From Candidatus Woesearchaeota archaeon (GTDB taxonomy: Archaea; Nanobdellota; Nanobdellia; SCGC-AAA011-G17; GW2011-AR20), in the NCBI GenBank assembly GCA_018303005.1, contig JAGVYY010000031.1, positions 24,994-88,993 on the forward strand: a DNA stretch of 64,000 nucleotides, given 5' to 3'. The notes below the pieces were generated by a model that worked only from the letters and a program-made list of their open reading frames with translations, was not told where the DNA came from and searched no databases. Made by a program: the position numbers and the translations under genes. Numbering within the stretch: position 1 is the stretch's first letter; each line of letters opens with the position of its first letter. Positions 7,528-27,646 of this stretch are shown in pieces.

Positions 7528-7639
7528 TTCAACTCTCAAAGTCAGCAATAACAAAAGATGGATCACAATTCAGCAACTAATCTCTAAATATAAAACTCAT
7601 AATATCTCAATACGTCTACGAACTTCGAAGACGTCTACG

Positions 7640-7676
7640 ACATGTCTACAGACGTCTAAGACGTCTGTAGACATGT
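7640..7676. repeat. Perfect 18-bp inverted repeat with a 1-nt spacer (ACATGTCTACAGACGTCT a AGACGTCTGTAGACATGT), preceded by two direct ACGTCTACGA repeats at 7611-7640
   Basis: Read directly from the sequence. It lies about 45 nt upstream of the ORF starting at 7719 and is relatively GC-rich in an AT-rich intergenic region. Confidence 0.8.
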
Positions 7677-8336: not shown

Positions 8337-8739
8337 TTTGAATTTGAATTATGAAGAACTATTTCAAATAGCAGTTTCAGTATTGGAGAATATAATACCA
8401 TTACACCAAATATATGGAGATGTATCATCCAAAGATAATCTTGGTATTATTTCAATAAGTGAAGCCTACATCTCCAAATCCATCTTTTTATGTGAAAAAT
8501 ATCAGGATAAGATTGAAAAATACACTGAGGAATTGGTTTCTATATTTGACATATCTGAAGAAGGCAGTCTACTTGAAAAAGAATTATCAGAAGTTTTTAA
8601 ATTATCTTATGTTATAAACTATATAGCGAATTTTGAGAAAGGTGAAGACAAACAAGATATATTGAGAACAGCATCTTCCTGGGATAGATATACACAAATT
8701 AAAAATAAAGAAAGACAAAAATATTTAATCATGGTTTGA
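8314..8739 (+). CDS. Hypothetical protein
   Basis: ATG at 8314, overlapping the end of the upstream ORF. The track entry begins at an alternative TTG at 8233. Confidence 0.35.
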   Translation: MNQNILNNLNLNYEELFQIAVSVLENIIPLHQIYGDVSSKDNLGIISISEAYISKSIFLCEKYQDKIEKYTEELVSIFDISEEGSLLEKELSEVFKLSYVINYIANFEKGEDKQDILRTASSWDRYTQIKNKERQKYLIMV

Positions 8740-8895
8740 ATTTTTTATAAAAACAAGCTCTTAGGTTGTTAGGTCTTTGTAGAAATTATCAACATTAAAA
8801 GGTACACACATCTGATATTAAAACTTTTAAGCATTGACAAAAGATTATCTAAACATAGAAAGATTTAAATATATTACATTTATTACATTTAAACT

Positions 8896-9147
8896 ATGGA
8901 AGAAGTTACGATTTCATTAAGGGTAGATAAAGAAGTACATAAAAAAATGAAATTACATGATGAAATAAACTGGAGCGCCTTATTAAGGAAATCAATAATA
9001 AAAACAATTGAGGATTTTGACTTTATTGATAAAGAAAGAGCAGAAAAAGCAGCTTTAAGTATGGATAAATTGAGGAAAGTAAATGCATTTTCTTCTGGAA
9101 AAGAAAGTGTTCAGGTCATTAGAGAATGGAGAAACAGACGAAAATAA
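8896..9147 (+). CDS. vapB: VapB-like antitoxin
   Basis: 83 aa. It overlaps the downstream PIN gene by a few nucleotides. A paralog is at 13327-13551. Confidence 0.55.
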   Translation: MEEVTISLRVDKEVHKKMKLHDEINWSALLRKSIIKTIEDFDFIDKERAEKAALSMDKLRKVNAFSSGKESVQVIREWRNRRK

Positions 9148-9524
9148 TAGATGCATCAATAGTTGTAAAATGGTTTGTTGATGAAGAGAATAGTAAAAAG
9201 GCTTTAGATATAAGAAACGACCATATTAATGGGAACATAAAAATTATAGTACCAGATCTTACCTTCATAGAAGTGTTAAATGCTCTTAAATATAAAGGAA
9301 AAACAGAAGAAGATTTAAAAGAAGCAAATAAGGATTTATGGGACATTCAATTACAGATAATAAAAACAACTTCTTTCACTTTAAACAAAGCAATAGAAAT
9401 AGCATTAAAACATGACATAACACTATACGATGCGCTATACATATCATTAAGCACAATATATGGTTGTCCTTTAATAACAGCAGATAAAAAATTAGCAGAT
9501 CTCCCAAATGTTCAGCTTATCTAA
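9126..9524 (+). CDS. vapC: PIN-domain VapC toxin
   Basis: KIIDASIVVKWFVDEE...ITADKKL carries the PIN acidic residues. It is translationally coupled to the upstream antitoxin. Confidence 0.8.
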   Translation: MEKQTKIIDASIVVKWFVDEENSKKALDIRNDHINGNIKIIVPDLTFIEVLNALKYKGKTEEDLKEANKDLWDIQLQIIKTTSFTLNKAIEIALKHDITLYDALYISLSTIYGCPLITADKKLADLPNVQLI

Positions 9525-9531
9525 GTGATAA

Positions 9532-9615
9532 TTAAAACTTTTAAGCAAAGATAAAATACTAAACTTCTACAATAAAAACTATAAAGTAGTAACAAAGCGA
9601 AAGGTTTATAAATAA
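9532..9615 (+). repeat. About 84-bp direct repeat, copy 1 (TTAAAACTTTTAAGCAAAGATAAAATACTAAACTTCTACAATAAAAACTATAAAGTAGTAACAAAgCGAAAGGTTTATAA)
   Basis: It matches 11106-11188 almost exactly, with 1 mismatch. It contains the palindrome TTAAAAcTTTTAA and a BRE/TATA-like end. Confidence 0.85.
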
Positions 9616-9947
9616 GTCTCTAATATTTTAACAAGATTAAATGAAATAATGGAGTTAAAATGGAACAACCAGAATATTTTAAGGGTTTAACAAATAGAGA
9701 TTATGTTCTTTTGCATAATCATCTTACAACACCAGTAGTTATGATGACATAAATAAGGAATTATTAAATTTTCCCCAAGGATCTATAAGGTTTGGGCCTG
9801 CTCTAGACCCAAGGTCGGGGGATTATCACCAAAGTCGGCAAAGATTTTTAATAGGATTATATATAACAAATACCCAATGTAAATCGGTAATTTTATGTGA
9901 CGGTAAACCAATAATATTAGAGGAAGCAATTGAAAAAGCAAAAATAA

Positions 9948-10493
9948 GTGATGGGATTTAAAAAGATGAAGCAGATAGAAGAAATAAGTGGTATAATTGA
10001 ATCAATGGATGATGATTCATTCTGTAGTTTTGCAAGAGAGCTTCAATATGGATTAAAATGGCATGCAGAAGCATATCAAGCAACACAAGTATCAATCTAT
10101 TTTAATGAATCCCCACATTTTGCAGGAGATATAGTTAAAAAGAATGGAAAACATAAAGAGAGTGTTGAAAAAATTAAAACATCTCCTTTGTACGATATTA
10201 TTAGAAGAGAATTAGCTAGAAGAACGAGTGATAGTGTCGATAATGATTGGGCAGGTTGGATCGATTTTAATAATAGATTTTTAAAATCACGTGAGGATGT
10301 TGATACAATAAATAGCTGTATTAGTAGAATTGTCAAAGGAGTTTATCCATTACAAGGGGTGATTAGGACAGAAAAAGAAAATCAAAGCTCAAAAGAAGCT
10401 AAAGAAAGAATATCAGAATATGGAATTAAAGGTTTCTTTATAGGAGATGCGGATTTAATTGACATTTTCTTTCACCATTACAGACAAAAATAG
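9948..10493 (+). CDS. Hypothetical protein
   Basis: 181 aa ORF inside the repeat-flanked segment. Confidence 0.4.
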   Translation: MMGFKKMKQIEEISGIIESMDDDSFCSFARELQYGLKWHAEAYQATQVSIYFNESPHFAGDIVKKNGKHKESVEKIKTSPLYDIIRRELARRTSDSVDNDWAGWIDFNNRFLKSREDVDTINSCISRIVKGVYPLQGVIRTEKENQSSKEAKERISEYGIKGFFIGDADLIDIFFHHYRQK

Positions 10494-10576
10494 GTTTATT
10501 TAGAAAGTAGTCTTAATCCATACAGAAATTTGGATGAGTTAAATATATAAACAAGAATAAAAGGTTAAATTATACA

Positions 10577-10780
10577 ATGCAAATAGAAGTAGCAAAAGAC
10601 ATCTCGGAAAATCTTGAAAGGGCTTCTAAAGAGCTAGGGCTAAATAAAAAAGAGTTAATAACAAGGGCAATAAAATTATACCTTCACAACATAAAAGAAT
10701 ATATAATCTTGAAAGAAGAACTTGAAGCTTGGGAAAGAGCTGGAACAGAGGATCTATTAGCCTTTGAAAATAAGATATGA
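10577..10780 (+). CDS. Ribbon-helix-helix (CopG/MazE-like) antitoxin
   Basis: 67 aa with ELITRAIKLYL. It overlaps the downstream toxin gene by 4 nt (ATGA). Confidence 0.5.
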   Translation: MQIEVAKDISENLERASKELGLNKKELITRAIKLYLHNIKEYIILKEELEAWERAGTEDLLAFENKI

Positions 10781-11103
10781 AAAAAGGTGAATTATGGGTT
10801 CTAGAACTTCCATTTCTAAATGGAAGAGAACAGAGAGGCACTCGACCGTGTTTAATCCTAGCAGATACGAAAACAGACATGATTGTTGTAATTCCATTAA
10901 CCTCAAATCTTCAAGCTTTAAGATTCCCACATACTGTAGAAATAAAAAAATCTGGAGAAAATAAGCTTGAAAAAGATTCAATAGCACTAATTTTTCAAAT
11001 TCAATCGTTAGATAAAAAGAGATTTATAAATAAAATCGGAGTTTTAGAAGATTATTATTTAAGCAAGGTAGATGAAGTACTAAAAAGATTAATTCAGTTA
11101 TAA
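10777..11103 (+). CDS. mazF: MazF/PemK-family toxin (endoribonuclease)
   Basis: GELWVLELPFLNGREQRGTRPCLILAD...VIPLTS is the PemK/MazF signature. Confidence 0.7.
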   Translation: MKKGELWVLELPFLNGREQRGTRPCLILADTKTDMIVVIPLTSNLQALRFPHTVEIKKSGENKLEKDSIALIFQIQSLDKKRFINKIGVLEDYYLSKVDEVLKRLIQL

Positions 11104-11105
11104 TC

Positions 11106-11188
11106 TTAAAACTTTTAAGCAAAGATAAAATACTAAACTTCTACAATAAAAACTATAAAGTAGTAACAAATCGAAAGGTTTATAAGAG
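11106..11188 (+). repeat. About 84-bp direct repeat, copy 2, immediately upstream of the gene at 11208
   Basis: See copy 1 at 9532-9615. Confidence 0.85.
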
Positions 11189-11207
11189 ATGGCTTCTCCT
11201 TTAGAAT

Positions 11208-11957
11208 ATGAATTTGAAAAAATCTTTTAGAAATATTTTAGGAATTACCATAGCATCTACCATTATGTATTTTTCATTAGATTCTAAAATGCAAGATAGT
11301 ATAAAAGATGTTACTCTTATGCCTATCAGAAGACTAGCTTACAGATTTGCATCTCAAACCGAAGCAGGATATCATGATATAGACATAATTCTAGATGCTA
11401 TAGTCTTGGGCGATGGGGATTATCGGGGTTCTTATTATGATTATAATAACCGTGACTATCATGGTGGCCCCAACATTCTAAAGATGTATTTAGGTTTAGA
11501 ACCCATAACTTTAGACAGATCTTTATATAAACCAACATCACTAACAAAGTTTTCAGATGTTCCGCTATACAGTATAAGCAAATATACAAAGTTAGATGAG
11601 TACTTGAATTGGAATACTGATTTTCTAAAGAGAATTTCGGAATTAAAGGAAGGAGAGATAATAAGTGGTGGGATAATTGGTGCTATACATACAAAAATAG
11701 ACCTCGGCAGAGGGCGTACTGTATCAATAGGCAGAGATAAGAAAGGGGCTTATGTTAGTTTATTTGACATATGGGACTTTGATTATTCTGCTGAAAACTG
11801 TGCAAGAGGGGAAAAAGATAAAAATATTCTGTTATTAATTGAGCGTTACTTAATGGATAAAATAGGAAAAAACAAAATCGGTTTCTATGACAGATTCTAT
11901 TTAAATGAAGCAGCCATTCAAAGAGAAGCGGATTCATTACCCCCTCTATCTAAATGA
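11208..11957 (+). CDS. Hypothetical protein with an N-terminal hydrophobic segment (membrane-anchored or secreted)
   Basis: 249 aa with no recognisable domain. Confidence 0.4.
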   Translation: MNLKKSFRNILGITIASTIMYFSLDSKMQDSIKDVTLMPIRRLAYRFASQTEAGYHDIDIILDAIVLGDGDYRGSYYDYNNRDYHGGPNILKMYLGLEPITLDRSLYKPTSLTKFSDVPLYSISKYTKLDEYLNWNTDFLKRISELKEGEIISGGIIGAIHTKIDLGRGRTVSIGRDKKGAYVSLFDIWDFDYSAENCARGEKDKNILLLIERYLMDKIGKNKIGFYDRFYLNEAAIQREADSLPPLSK

Positions 11958-12082
11958 GAGAAATGAAAAAAGTATAGAGTTATATACACCAAATTCGGTA
12001 GATCATAATTTATTGGATTTACTTCAAGAATAGAACACCATAACTCCAATTTTTAATATCATAAAATAAATCTAATATAAGA

Positions 12083-12113
12083 AAGTAGGCTTAATCCATA
12101 TTAAGCCTACTTT
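12083..12113. terminator. Perfect 13-bp stem (AAGTAGGCTTAAT / ATTAAGCCTACTT) with a 4-nt loop, followed by TTTTAAATTT, between convergent genes
   Basis: Read from the sequence. It sits between the 3' ends of the ORFs at 11208-11957(+) and 12130-12660(-). Confidence 0.5.
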
Positions 12114-12129
12114 TAAATTTAAGATATCC

Positions 12130-12660
12130 TTATTTAATTAATAAATCCATATCTTGTAGCTCTTTGTAAACTATCATTATAAACTCGTTCGTTATTCTTA
12201 CTAAATCTTTTTTAGAATAACCCACATTCATAGGTATTCGTTTCAGCTCCTCAGTATTCTTTGTACGATATAGTAACATGATATTGTATCTTCCATCTCT
12301 CCAATCTCTTATCTTACTATCTTCCAATAAATATATTTCAAATCGATAGATTCTCCCATAATAACCTATATTCCCTCCATATTTTAGATGACCAATCTTC
12401 CCCGAAAATTCAAACTTTCCATTTCTAGGCAGACTTTTATTTAGATTTTTTATAATATCTCCCGTCATCTCTTTTATATCTTTATCTAATTTACTTGCAA
12501 ATGTTAACTTTCCAACAAGGCTAAGTTGCTCCTTCCTCTCTCTATCCCAATGATTTTTTTCTGACCAATAAATTTCATCATCTCCCATCTTTTTAAATTT
12601 CTCCCAAAACCATTTACCTCTAAAACTTAAATTCTCTTTATATATATATCTTTCTATCAA
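12130..12660 (-). CDS. Hypothetical protein
   Basis: 176 aa. The listed start is an alternative start codon, so the true start is uncertain. Confidence 0.4.
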   Translation of the reverse strand: MIERYIYKENLSFRGKWFWEKFKKMGDDEIYWSEKNHWDRERKEQLSLVGKLTFASKLDKDIKEMTGDIIKNLNKSLPRNGKFEFSGKIGHLKYGGNIGYYGRIYRFEIYLLEDSKIRDWRDGRYNIMLLYRTKNTEELKRIPMNVGYSKKDLVRITNEFIMIVYKELQDMDLLIK

Positions 12661-12672
12661 ATTCTACTTAAT
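12649..12672 (+). repeat. Core repeat copy C (TCTTTCTATCAAATTCTACTTAAT)
   Basis: It matches the repeats at 13240-13264 and 14785-14803. It is related to ACTAAACTTCTACAATAAAA inside the 84-bp repeats. Confidence 0.7.
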
Positions 12673-13193: not shown

Positions 13194-13239
13194 AAATAAT
13201 TAAATAATTCATTCTATATAAGTTTTATTAGTATTATTA

Positions 13240-13264
13240 TCTTACTATCAAAATTCTACTTAAT
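13240..13264 (+). repeat. Core repeat copy D (TCTTACTATCAAAATTCTACTTAAT)
   Basis: Together with copy C it brackets the DUF4258/DUF2283 pair exactly. Confidence 0.7.
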
Positions 13265-14744: not shown

Positions 14745-14784
14745 TTAATAAATTGTTTCATTTAAAAAAACACAAATTAGATAA

Positions 14785-14803
14785 ATCAAAAATTCTACTT
14801 AAT
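14785..14803 (+). repeat. Core repeat copy E (ATCAAAAATTCTACTTAAT), 4 nt upstream of the recombinase ATG
   Basis: Read from the sequence. Confidence 0.7.
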
Positions 14804-14806
14804 CTA

Positions 14807-15643
14807 ATGGAAAAAGAGTTGATATTAGAAAAATTAAGAACAGAACTAACAATACAGGGAAAATCGCAAAAAACAATAGACGCTTATCTATTACATACAC
14901 AAAAATTTCTTGAATTTATAAAGAAAGATTCTTCTAAACTGCAAAAACAAGATATAAAGAATTATTTAGCAGACTTAATGTCAAAAAACTTAAAACCAAA
15001 ATCAATAAACTTAAAACTGTCTACAATACGTTTCCTAAACAGATATATATTAAAAAACCCAAAGTTAATGGAAGATATCAAATCACAAAAAACAGCAGAG
15101 AAGATACCAACCTACCTGACAACTGAAGAAATTCAAAAGTTGCTAGCAACCATTAAAAATTCTAAGCATAAGCTTATGATAGAGATAATGTTAACATCTG
15201 GATTAAGAGTATCGGAGTGTATCAATCTAAAACAACAAGATATTAACGACGACAATACCATAACTGTAAGAGCAGGCAAAGGGAATAAAGACAGGATTAC
15301 AATAATTCCAAGTTCAGTATTACAACATCTGAAGAAGCATATAGAAGAGAGAAAACATGATTCAGATTATGTTTTGTGCAAAAAAAACGGTAATAAACTC
15401 AGTGTAAAATTACCCCAGAAAATCATAAAACAATTAGCAATTAAATCAGGAATCAAGAAGAACATAACACCTCATGTTTTAAGACATTCATTCGCAACCC
15501 ATCTCTTGCATAATGGCACAGATATTCGTTATATTCAAATATTGCTGGGGCATGCACAGATTCAGACAACTCAGATTTATACACACATCTCAAAAGAGCA
15601 GATTAAGCAGATCAAGAATCCCTTCAATGATATGATAAAATAA
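14807..15643 (+). CDS. xerA: Tyrosine site-specific recombinase (XerA/XerC/XerD-like integrase)
   Basis: The C-terminal catalytic region is HVLRHSFATHLLHNGTDIRYIQILLGHAQIQTTQIYTHI (R..H.R...Y). The N-terminal core-binding domain is present. About 279 aa. Confidence 0.8.
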   Translation: MEKELILEKLRTELTIQGKSQKTIDAYLLHTQKFLEFIKKDSSKLQKQDIKNYLADLMSKNLKPKSINLKLSTIRFLNRYILKNPKLMEDIKSQKTAEKIPTYLTTEEIQKLLATIKNSKHKLMIEIMLTSGLRVSECINLKQQDINDDNTITVRAGKGNKDRITIIPSSVLQHLKKHIEERKHDSDYVLCKKNGNKLSVKLPQKIIKQLAIKSGIKKNITPHVLRHSFATHLLHNGTDIRYIQILLGHAQIQTTQIYTHISKEQIKQIKNPFNDMIK

Positions 15644-15940: not shown

Positions 15941-16066
15941 TGGGAAAAGTAATTTTAAAGAATGCAATACAAAGAAAAGCAGGCCATCTTTATTATGTAG
16001 ACGGCAAAGGTAATGTGTGTGAAGCAGTCATGGCCCGTGGTGGAAAAAGAAAAAGAAAAAAATAAT
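15941..16066 (+). CDS. Small basic protein (41 aa), MGKVILKNAIQRKAGHLYYVDGKGNVCEAVMARGGKRKRKK
   Basis: A strong AAAGGAGG Shine-Dalgarno-like sequence lies 7 nt upstream. It is not in the ORF track (shorter than 60 aa). Confidence 0.3.
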
Positions 16067-16368
16067 TATCTCACAATTTCTCTGAAAAGAGCAAAAATAA
16101 TTTTTTTTGAGATTTTATATTCTCTTAAACCTTTTTTTGTGAGATGATACATTTTTTTTCTACCGATCTGTTTAAACTTAACAAGATTATACATTCTTAA
16201 TCTTTTTAATGTTGGATAAATAGTTCCTGGTGTCAGCTTATTTCCTTTTCTTCTGCCTATAATAAAAGCAAGATCTTCACCACAACAATGTTTTCTCTTT
16301 AGCTCTTTCATTATCTGGAAACTCAATAAGCCTCGAAGATCAATGTATTTTGGTAGTTTCATTTTCAA
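16066..16368 (-). CDS. PadR-family transcriptional regulator
   Basis: ELKRKHCCGEDLAFIIGRRKGNKLTPGTIYPTLKRLRMYNLV fits the PadR wHTH. Confidence 0.6.
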   Translation of the reverse strand: MKMKLPKYIDLRGLLSFQIMKELKRKHCCGEDLAFIIGRRKGNKLTPGTIYPTLKRLRMYNLVKFKQIGRKKMYHLTKKGLREYKISKKIIFALFREIVR

Positions 16369-16373
16369 TCAAT

Positions 16374-16390
16374 GATTAAAACTTTTAATC
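16374..16390. promoter_or_regulatory. Perfect palindrome GATTAAAAcTTTTAATC directly upstream of the padR-like gene start (candidate operator)
   Basis: The same core TTAAAAcTTTTAA occurs at 8818, 9533 and 11106, upstream of the TA cassettes. Confidence 0.45.
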
Positions 16391-19478: not shown

Positions 19479-20003
19479 ATGAAAATATTGGCTGCTTCAG
19501 ACATACATGGAGATATCAATTTACAGTCAACTGCAGGCATAATAGGGCCGTTTGTAAAAAGAAATAAGAAAGTTCTCTTGATACCTGGAAATCATGAAAC
19601 TCCTGCAACAGCAGATTTCTTAGCAGAGTTGTATGGTGCTGTTAATCTACATGGCTACTCTTATAAAATGAAAGATATTGGTTTGTTCGGCTGCGGTTCA
19701 GCAAATATAGGACACTTTCAACTGTCAGAGGCTGAAATTTTTGACTTGCTTAAAAAAAGTTATAAATATATAAAAGATTCAAAGAAGAAGATAATGGTAA
19801 CACATGTCCATCCGAAAGGTTCAAGCATGGAAAGACTTACGAACTTTTTTCCAGGAAGTTCAGGTGTTACAAAAGCAATAAGAGAGCTTAAACCCGATCT
19901 TCTTTTATGCGGTCATGTGCATGAAGCAGAAGGTATAGAAGAGAAAATTGATAATACATTAGTAATAAACGTTGGCAGGAACGGAAAAATAATAGAGATC
20001 TAA
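19479..20003 (+). CDS. Calcineurin-like metallophosphoesterase
   Basis: SDIHGD...GNHE...GHVH motifs. Confidence 0.7.
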   Translation: MKILAASDIHGDINLQSTAGIIGPFVKRNKKVLLIPGNHETPATADFLAELYGAVNLHGYSYKMKDIGLFGCGSANIGHFQLSEAEIFDLLKKSYKYIKDSKKKIMVTHVHPKGSSMERLTNFFPGSSGVTKAIRELKPDLLLCGHVHEAEGIEEKIDNTLVINVGRNGKIIEI

Positions 20004-27398: not shown

Positions 27399-27572
27399 TC
27401 TTAAAAGATAATCTTAAATATACTCTTTCATTTCTATTTTTACCTAGGCTTAGTCTAGGCCACAGGCTTACCCATAGTGCTATTTAAAATAGCCATGAAA
27501 TACAACTGATTATCTTTTGATAGAGAGATAATAAAAAGCAGTGAATGATATAAGAGTGGGCAAGCTATATCT

Positions 27573-27646
27573 GGTGTCCATAGGTTGGTTCATAGTAGGA
27601 ACTTGAATCTGAATGCTAGGTATGAGAATCTTGTTAACTCGAAATT
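27573..27646 (+). repeat. DGR template region (TR), rich in AAC/AAT codons, flanked by an inverted repeat (CCTAGGCTTAGTCT at about 27446 and AGACTAAGCTAGG at about 27689)
   Basis: Read from the sequence. Coordinates may be off by 1 nt. Confidence 0.55.

What the first reader, a model, noticed from the sequence alone, without database searches (positions are those of the whole stretch)
9532..11188. Near-identical 84-bp direct repeats flank a 1.5 kb segment (hypothetical gene plus RHH/MazF pair)
The sequences at 9532-9615 and 11106-11188 differ at a single position. Each contains the palindrome TTAAAAcTTTTAA followed by a BRE/TATA-like AAAGGTTTATAA. A weaker third copy of the first half is at 8818-8870, upstream of vapBC. 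This looks like a duplicated promoter-operator leader or att-like site. It points to recent insertion or duplication of the enclosed module, and identical regulation of consecutive cassettes.
Basis: seen in the sequence. Interest (0 to 1): 0.6.

Follow-up and report, generated by a model that had tools for sequence, protein, structure and literature searches.

The report
Duplicated promoter flanking an inserted gene block
An 80-base promoter region in a groundwater Woesearchaeota genome occurs twice, 1.57 kb apart. The extra copy came with a gene block that a related genome lacks, so two unrelated genes share one promoter; this is ordinary genome turnover, not a new mobile element.

Summary
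The repeat is real. R1 (9532-9611) and R2 (11106-11185) are 80 nt long and differ at one base. The quoted 84/83 nt overrun by 3-4 unmatched bases. Fourteen independently assembled contigs carry both copies, so it is not an assembly artefact.

R has two parts. Box A (TTAAAACTTTTAAGCAAAGATAAAA) is a palindrome-bearing box. Box B ends in the archaeal BRE/TATA AAAGGTTTATAA. R2 puts the TATA 22 nt before the ATG of a 249-aa orphan gene, the spacing seen at three other genes in the window.

A syntenic relative (L038, about 70% identical in coding DNA) has one R, 85% identical, right after a PIN toxin gene. An unrelated gene and a conserved hairpin T follow it. The window therefore gained about 1.57 kb: either X1 plus RHH/MazF, or mazEF-R2-X2.

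Island genes differ between species, yet R, T and a second promoter element S are 85-96% conserved. Box A also sits upstream of a conserved PadR-like regulator gene in three genomes, which makes that regulator the candidate binder.

There is no RNA fold, no integron integrase, no copy elsewhere and no deletion variant. The best reading is promoter-operator duplication by recombination in a toxin-antitoxin-rich variable island. An att-like site is not supported.

The parts
9532..9611 (+). R1: 80-nt promoter-operator element. Box A is 9532-9556, box B is 9575-9611, and BRE/TATA AAAGG+TTTATAA is 9600-9611. It starts 7 nt after the vapC stop codon.
11106..11185 (+). R2: second copy, matching R1 at 79 of 80 positions. 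It starts 2 nt after the mazF stop codon. The TATA ends 22 nt before the ATG of the 249-aa gene. Three alleles occur in the population.
8815..8872 (+). R3-type short promoter: box A (8818-8842, 22 of 25 matches) plus BRE/TATA GAAAGATTTAAATA. The vapB ATG lies 23 nt after the TATA.
8896..9524 (+). vapBC toxin-antitoxin pair: VapB/RHH 8896-9147 and PIN toxin 9126-9524.
   Evidence: Pfam PIN 3.8e-17; VapB NF050799 9.3e-8
9612..9661 (+). Leader after R1, with GGAG 8 nt before the ATG at 9662. It aligns with the leaders after R in L038 and L039, so R1 sits at the ancestral position.
9662..9960 (+). A 31-codon ORF (9662-9757) followed by a start-less open frame of about 80 codons. Probably a decayed remnant. 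No family match.
9966..10493 (+). X1: 175-aa all-helical protein of unknown function.
   Evidence: 35 distant relatives; AF2 mean pLDDT 90.8; no PDB fold match, best E = 0.51
10502..10522 (+). T1: copy of the left arm and loop of hairpin T (20 of 21 matches to 12080-12100), at offset 1578 against 1574 for R.
   Evidence: 0 of 300 shuffles reached it
10577..11103 (+). RHH/RelB-like antitoxin (10577-10780) and MazF/PemK toxin (10777-11103).
   Evidence: PemK 3.1e-22; RelB-like NF048017 5.4e-5
11208..11957 (+). X2: 249-aa orphan with an N-terminal hydrophobic segment. The ATG sits 22 nt after the TATA, which would fit a leaderless transcript from R2.
12082..12113 (.). T2: perfect 14-bp hairpin AAAGTAGGCTTAAT-CCAT-ATTAAGCCTACTTT at the convergent gene junction. 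Conserved in L038 (86%) and in L024.
12640..12671 (-). S element (TTAAGTAGAATTTGATAGAAAGATATATATA): a second conserved promoter type, upstream of the 176-aa gene.
13232..13263 (-). S element, second copy, upstream of the DUF4258/DUF2283 pair.
14753..15643 (+). XerA tyrosine recombinase (housekeeping). It bounds the variable island.
   Evidence: NF040815 242.9 bits against cutoff 220; integron integrase TIGR02249 198.6 against cutoff 265
16066..16390 (-). PadR-like winged-helix regulator gene with the palindrome ATGATTAAAACTTTTAATCAT (16370-16390) just upstream. Candidate binder of box A.

Best explanation
R is a composite archaeal promoter-operator element.
- Box A (25 nt) carries the palindrome TTAAAAnTTTTAA.
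- A spacer of about 20 nt follows.
- Box B (about 39 nt) ends in BRE/TATA.

R belongs to a toxin-antitoxin-rich variable island that lies between conserved housekeeping genes (the ArgRS side and the XerA/PadR/SerRS side).

Ancestral layout: TA pair -> R -> leader -> gene X -> hairpin T, with one R and one T.

In this lineage a stretch of about 1.57 kb was gained by recombination between variants of the island. The breakpoints lie in the loop of T and at the 5' edge of R. The result is R1-leader-remnant-X1-T1(left arm)-mazEF-R2-X2-T2. Two unrelated genes, and possibly mazEF by read-through, now sit behind the same promoter-operator.

Shown:
- the repeat itself;
- its promoter anatomy;
- the single-copy state in a relative;
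- the cross-species conservation of R, T and S around non-homologous genes.

Inferred:
- that R fires;
- that box A is bound by the neighbouring PadR-like regulator;
- that the gain was homology-assisted recombination rather than site-specific integration.
For: Repeat and population:
- 79 of 80 positions match.
- Fourteen independent contigs carry both copies.

Promoter anatomy:
- RAAAG-TTTAWAW plus 22-23 nt to the ATG occurs at the genes starting at 950, 6386, 19479 and 11208.

Ancestral single copy:
- L038 is syntenic from ArgRS to SerRS.
- It has one R (11611-11691, 85% identical) 8 nt after a PIN gene.
- A 255-aa gene unrelated to X1 or X2 follows, and then T (86% identical).

R1 sits at the ancestral position:
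- The leader after R1, but not the sequence after R2, aligns with L038 and L039.

Another TA insertion next to R:
- In L039 a DUF4258/DUF2283 pair sits between box A and box B.

Second in-register repeat:
- T1/T2 match at 20 of 21 positions at offset 1578; 0 of 300 shuffles reached this.

Island turnover:
- Island proteins are not homologous between species.
- R, T and S are 85-96% conserved.
- Population SNPs cluster in the island.

Candidate regulator:
- The box A palindrome lies upstream of PadR-like orthologues (80% and 56% identical) in the window, L038 and L031.
Against: - There is no expression data, so promoter activity and shared regulation are untested.
- Only three related contigs (L038, L039, L024) define the ancestral state.
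- The near-equal lengths of the two R-to-T intervals (890 and 894 nt) with unrelated content are unexplained.
- The near-identity of R1 and R2 could come from gene conversion between older copies rather than a recent gain.
- In L031, two box A copies lie in a convergent intergenic region after xerA, which does not fit a pure operator role.
Confidence: 0.62

Rival explanations
1. R is an att-like or cassette-boundary site. The 1.5-kb module would be a mobile cassette integrated by site-specific recombination, for example by the nearby tyrosine recombinase, which would make this an integron-like array.
For: - Direct repeats flank a TA-containing module.
- A tyrosine recombinase lies 3.5 kb away.
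- The conserved non-coding elements bracket non-homologous cargo in three species.
- Another TA pair is inserted within R in L039.
- Two box A copies lie right after xerA in L031.
Against: - The recombinase scores as archaeal XerA (242.9 bits, above cutoff 220) and below the integron-integrase cutoff (198.6 against 265). It is syntenic in L038 and L031.
- R shows no attC-like fold on either strand (z from +0.28 to +1.61).
- Every cassette carries its own promoter, unlike integron cassettes.
- No contig of 15 carrying VapC or 7 carrying X2 lacks the module.
- The palindrome arms are separated by 1 nt, whereas tyrosine-recombinase cores usually have a 6-8-nt spacer (my own knowledge).
Confidence: 0.1
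2. The two copies are old and are kept near-identical by gene conversion or by strong selection on a long regulatory site. On this view the repeat says nothing about a recent insertion.
For: - Box B matches at about 37 of 39 positions, and box A is invariant at most positions, across species that are only about 70% identical in coding DNA.
- One strain (L001) has R2 identical to R1, while other strains differ at one of two sites. That pattern fits ongoing conversion.
Against: - The spacer part of R (9557-9574) diverges between species yet is identical between R1 and R2. Selection alone therefore does not explain 79 of 80 matches.
- L038 and L039 have a single full R.
Confidence: 0.2
3. R encodes or is a structured RNA: an sRNA, a cis-regulatory leader, or a 3'-UTR/terminator of the upstream toxin operons.
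For: - R starts 2-8 nt after toxin stop codons in the window and in L038. It would therefore be part of any read-through 3' UTR.
Against: - There is no Rfam match in 8700-12200 even at E <= 1.
- Folding energies are no better than shuffles on either strand.
- The repeat ends at the TATA box, so its own promoter does not transcribe it.
- It contains only a T4 run.
Confidence: 0.05
4. Assembly duplication artefact.
For: None found.
Against: - The same arrangement appears in 14 contigs from different samples and assembly sources.
- The R2 alleles are distinct from R1.
- The flanks of the two copies are unique.
Confidence: 0.01

Closest known systems
Putative mobile promoters / promoter reuse (Matus-Garcia, Nijveen and van Passel 2012; PMC3575422)
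   Same: - Highly similar upstream sequence (at least 80% over at least 50 nt) in front of unrelated genes in one genome.
- Not an IS element or a known RNA family.
   Different: - This case is in a DPANN archaeon with a BRE/TATA promoter.
- The copies are adjacent (1.57 kb apart), not dispersed.
- The orthologous single-copy element can be traced in related species.
Integron cassette arrays, including the archaeal integrons I recall from Ghaly et al. 2022
   Same: - An array of small, mostly same-strand cassettes rich in toxin-antitoxin genes.
- Cassettes are separated by similar repeats.
- A tyrosine recombinase lies nearby.
   Different: - No IntI (XerA instead).
- The repeats do not fold like attC sites.
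- The repeats are promoters placed 5' of the genes.
- No cassette presence/absence polymorphism was seen.
Homology-facilitated illegitimate recombination, or allelic cassette replacement anchored on conserved flanks (my own knowledge; de Vries and Wackernagel 2002)
   Same: - Conserved flanks (R, T) with unrelated cargo between them.
- One breakpoint lies inside a conserved element (the T loop).
- The other end lies at a homologous anchor.
   Different: - The mechanism is inferred from anatomy only.
- It has not been demonstrated in archaea of this group.
Type II toxin-antitoxin islands in archaeal genomes (vapBC, mazEF, DUF4258/DUF2283)
   Same: - Several TA pairs of these families are packed into one variable region.
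   Different: - The notable feature here is the conserved non-coding scaffold (R, S, T), not the TA genes themselves.

Membership tests
Putative mobile promoter (PMP) | At least 80% identity over at least 50 nt in the upstream regions of two genes of one genome | tested here: met
   79 of 80 positions match. R2 spans -102 to -23 relative to the X2 ATG.
Putative mobile promoter (PMP) | The adjacent coding sequences are not paralogous | tested here: met
   blastn and tblastx of 9501-10580 against 11076-12135 find only R and T.
Putative mobile promoter (PMP) | Not a known RNA family | tested here: met
   No Rfam match.
Putative mobile promoter (PMP) | Not a known IS element | not tested
   No IS database was searched. 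Indirect only: no plasmid or phage match and no further copies in 83 kb.
Archaeal BRE/TATA core promoter | A purine-rich BRE followed by an 8-bp TATA box about 23 nt upstream of the TSS | tested here: inconclusive
   The motif, and a 22-nt spacing to the ATG, are shared with three other genes. The TSS was not measured.
Integron | IntI-type integrase | tested here: not met
   TIGR02249 198.6 bits against cutoff 265; NF040815 XerA 242.9 bits against cutoff 220.
Integron | attC sites that fold as imperfect hairpins | tested here: not met
   z-scores from +0.28 to +1.61 on both strands.
Integron | Promoterless cassettes | tested here: not met
   Each unit has its own BRE/TATA.
Integrated element with attL/attR | Identical direct repeats at both ends | tested here: met
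Integrated element with attL/attR | A recombinase inside the element | tested here: not met
   The module holds only X1, an RHH antitoxin and MazF.
Integrated element with attL/attR | Empty-site or excised forms in the population | tested here: inconclusive
   None among the contigs carrying VapC, MazF or X2. The junction-pattern scan found nothing, but that collection lacks this population.
MITE or dispersed repeat | Many copies | tested here: not met
   Only the island copies occur in 83 kb. Matches in GTDB representatives and metagenome contigs are chance hits or orthologues.
MITE or dispersed repeat | Terminal inverted repeats and target-site duplications | not tested
   R was not examined for terminal inverted repeats or target-site duplications.
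Type II TA (VapBC, MazEF) | A small antitoxin gene overlapping or abutting a PIN or PemK toxin gene | tested here: met
   PIN 3.8e-17 and PemK 3.1e-22; VapB and RelB-like antitoxins; overlaps of 22 nt and 4 nt.
PadR-family operator | A palindromic site bound by the regulator, typically upstream of its own gene | tested here: inconclusive
   The palindrome lies upstream of PadR-like orthologues in three genomes. Binding is not testable here.

The most novel reading that the evidence does not exclude
R, S and T may be fixed docking elements of a gene-capture locus. On this reading, unrelated orphan genes and toxin-antitoxin genes are swapped in and out between a conserved promoter and a conserved hairpin across Woesearchaeota species. 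A dedicated recombination reaction would do the swapping, for example XerA or another enzyme acting at the box A palindrome. That would be an integron-like platform with no IntI and no attC sites, in which each slot supplies the promoter.
Probability: 0.1. Interest if true: 0.7.

Novelty: new member of a known kind. Interest (0 to 1): 0.33.

Why it matters
- It is a clean, traceable case of promoter reuse in a DPANN archaeon. One conserved promoter-operator now drives two unrelated genes, and the single-copy ancestral state is visible in a relative.
- In this island the regulatory scaffold (R, S, T) outlives the genes it serves. This hints at how small-genome archaea plug orphan genes and toxin-antitoxin genes into existing regulation.
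- It gives a testable candidate regulon for a PadR-like regulator.
- It is not a new kind of mobile element on present evidence.

Tried and rejected
- RNA structure: the R regions on both strands fold no better than shuffles. Rfam finds nothing at gathering threshold or at E <= 1.
- Tandem duplication of a whole unit: rejected. The interiors of R1..T1 and R2..T2 share no DNA or protein similarity.
- Deletion junction: a pattern spanning vapC end, one R and X2 start found nothing in metagenome contigs. The R pattern did not recover the known Rifle contigs from that collection either, so this negative result is uninformative.
- Exact-protein look-ups for VapC, MazF and X2 gave only module-bearing contigs.
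- R in other collections: GTDB representatives gave 5 single hits, of which only L024 is an orthologue. Viral contigs gave none. Plasmids and phages gave no match to 9500-11250.
- Function of X1, X2 and the 9662-9960 remnant: no hits in Pfam, NCBIfam, PADLOC or PHROGs. A PDB profile search and a Foldseek search were not significant.
- P0009, a 228-aa protein 89% identical to X2, lies on a chimeric 970-nt contig and was not informative.
- Integron reading: rejected on the integrase score and on the lack of an attC-like fold.

Full report
**1. Observation**

R1 (9532-9611) and R2 (11106-11185) are 80-nt direct repeats that match at 79 of 80 positions. The enclosed segment is 1494 nt.

Both copies carry TTAAAACTTTTAA at the 5' end and CGAAAGGTTTATAA at the 3' end. 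A partial third copy lies at 8815-8847, upstream of vapB.

R1 starts 7 nt after the vapC stop codon. R2 starts 2 nt after the mazF stop codon.

**2. Not an artefact**

The window comes from a low-GC (about 30%) archaeon that NCBI labels Candidatus Woesearchaeota. Its contigs recur in many aquifer groundwater metagenomes.

Exact-protein look-ups for MazF, VapC and the 249-aa protein returned contigs from many samples and assembly sources.
- Fourteen distinct contigs carry both R copies with the same flanks.
- All are more than 99.2% identical to the window.
- R1 never varies.
- R2 has three alleles: identical to R1, G66T (as in the window) and A71G.
- No contig joins vapC directly to the 249-aa gene.

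**3. Anatomy of R**

R does not fold better than shuffled sequence on either strand. It has no Rfam match.

Its 3' end is a BRE/TATA. The same RAAAG-TTTAWAW motif lies 22-23 nt before the ATG of the genes at 950, 6386 and 19479, and 22 nt before the ATG of the 249-aa gene X2 at 11208. That spacing would fit leaderless transcription.

After R1 there is a 50-nt leader with GGAG, then a 31-codon ORF, then a start-less open frame, and then X1 (175 aa from 9966).

Neither X gene has a known function.
- X1 has 35 distant relatives and a confident all-helical model, but no PDB fold match.
- X2 is an orphan.

**4. A second repeat in register**

T1 (10502-10522) matches T2 (12080-12100) at 20 of 21 positions, at offset 1578 against 1574 for R. 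None of 300 shuffles produced such a match.

T2 is the left arm and loop of a perfect 14-bp hairpin (12082-12113) at a convergent gene junction.

The locus is therefore two R...T units of nearly equal length (890 and 894 nt). Their interiors are unrelated, and mazEF sits between the units.

**5. Relatives**

*L038.* This contig is syntenic from ArgRS to SerRS and about 70% identical in coding DNA.
- It has one R (11611-11691), 85% identical to R1, 8 nt after a PIN gene.
- A leader follows, then a 255-aa gene unrelated to X1 or X2, then T (86% identical).

*L039.* This contig keeps box A after its PIN gene.
- A DUF4258/DUF2283 pair follows.
- Then come box B, the leader and a homologue of the 255-aa gene.

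*L024.* This MAG (archaeon ARS1176) has an exact 25-nt box A, two small genes and a T-like hairpin.

*What the comparison shows.*
- The leader after R1 aligns with L038 and L039; the sequence after R2 does not. R1 is therefore at the ancestral position, and the T2 flank is ancestral too.
- The lineage gained about 1.57 kb.
- Island proteins are essentially non-homologous between these genomes.
- R, T and a second promoter type S (TTAAGTAGAATTTTGATAGAAAGATATATATA; window 12640-12671 and 13232-13263) are 85-96% conserved.
- Population SNPs also concentrate in the island.

**6. Likely regulator**

The palindrome occurs in five places in 64 kb. Four are intergenic: three in the island and one (ATGATTAAAACTTTTAATCAT, 16370-16390) directly upstream of a PadR-like gene.

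PadR-like orthologues in L038 (80% identical) and L031 (56% identical) also have the palindrome upstream. This makes the PadR-like protein the best candidate binder of box A.

This is inference only. In L031, two more copies lie in a convergent spacer after xerA, which does not fit a pure operator role.

**7. Mechanism of the gain**

The breakpoints are the T loop (T1 keeps only the left arm) and the 5' edge of R. This fits recombination between two variants of the island in close relatives: one side anchored on homology (R, or T and its flank) and the other joined illegitimately. I cannot separate this from a tandem duplication followed by cargo replacement.

Site-specific integration is not supported.
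- The nearby recombinase is XerA (242.9 bits against cutoff 220). It falls below the integron-integrase cutoff (198.6 against 265).
- It is syntenic in relatives.
- R lacks an attC-like fold.
- R is absent from a further 19 kb of this genome.
- R gave no further copies in GTDB representatives, none in viral contigs, and no plasmid or phage match.

**8. Comparison with known systems**

The pair meets the published operational definition of putative mobile promoters (PMC3575422). It resembles an integron array only superficially.

**9. Verdict**

The promoter-operator reading and the module-gain reading are supported. The att-site reading is not.

Novelty is modest: a new, well-resolved example of promoter reuse in a DPANN variable island. 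The conserved non-coding scaffold around changing cargo is the one feature worth a wider survey.

Noticed in passing
window 27443-27573 (+): Rfam RT-16 RNA match just at threshold (50.3 bits against a gathering score of 50).
   Followed up: no
window 7614-7676: A run of GTCTAC/AGACGTCT repeats with a perfect 18-nt inverted repeat (7640-7657 / 7659-7676), between the 191-aa and 205-aa genes. It is 96% conserved in L038 (9820-9846) and L039 (3502-3528), far above the neighbouring coding DNA.
   Followed up: partly
window 12113/12114 and 19523-19530: Compared with other strains (L001, L002), the window lacks 72 nt just right of hairpin T2. It also lacks about 75 nt inside the metallophosphoesterase gene (174 aa here, 200 aa elsewhere). 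Many population contigs break near 12.1-12.6 kb.
   Followed up: partly
window 10232-10349 (X1 gene): Strain L004 differs at 12 sites within 118 nt of X1 and is near-identical elsewhere. This looks like a short recombination tract. Population SNPs cluster in the 8.5-12.5 kb island.
   Followed up: partly
window 9966-10493: X1 belongs to a small uncharacterised family (35 representatives with E <= 1e-3). The AlphaFold model is confident (mean pLDDT 90.8) and all-helical, with no significant PDB match.
   Followed up: partly
window 12640-12671 and 13232-13263 (-); L038 13613-13659 and 15187-15239: A second conserved promoter-like element S is repeated upstream of minus-strand cassettes. It is 87-96% conserved between species.
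   Followed up: partly
L045 5525-7287 (about 2.3-3.5 kb upstream of the window start): The Cdc6/Orc1 and PolD genes, with a 515-nt spacer, lie just upstream of the window. The variable island therefore sits roughly 12 kb from the Cdc6/Orc1 locus, which may mark a replication origin.
   Followed up: no
L031 4900-5160 and 8640-8830: In a more distant AT-rich archaeal contig, a unit of about 200 nt with two box A palindromes occurs twice: once upstream of the PadR-like gene and once after xerA.
   Followed up: partly
L041 (JGI Ga0103680_10235629): A chimeric 970-nt contig: a GC-rich head joined to this population's X2 region.
   Followed up: yes
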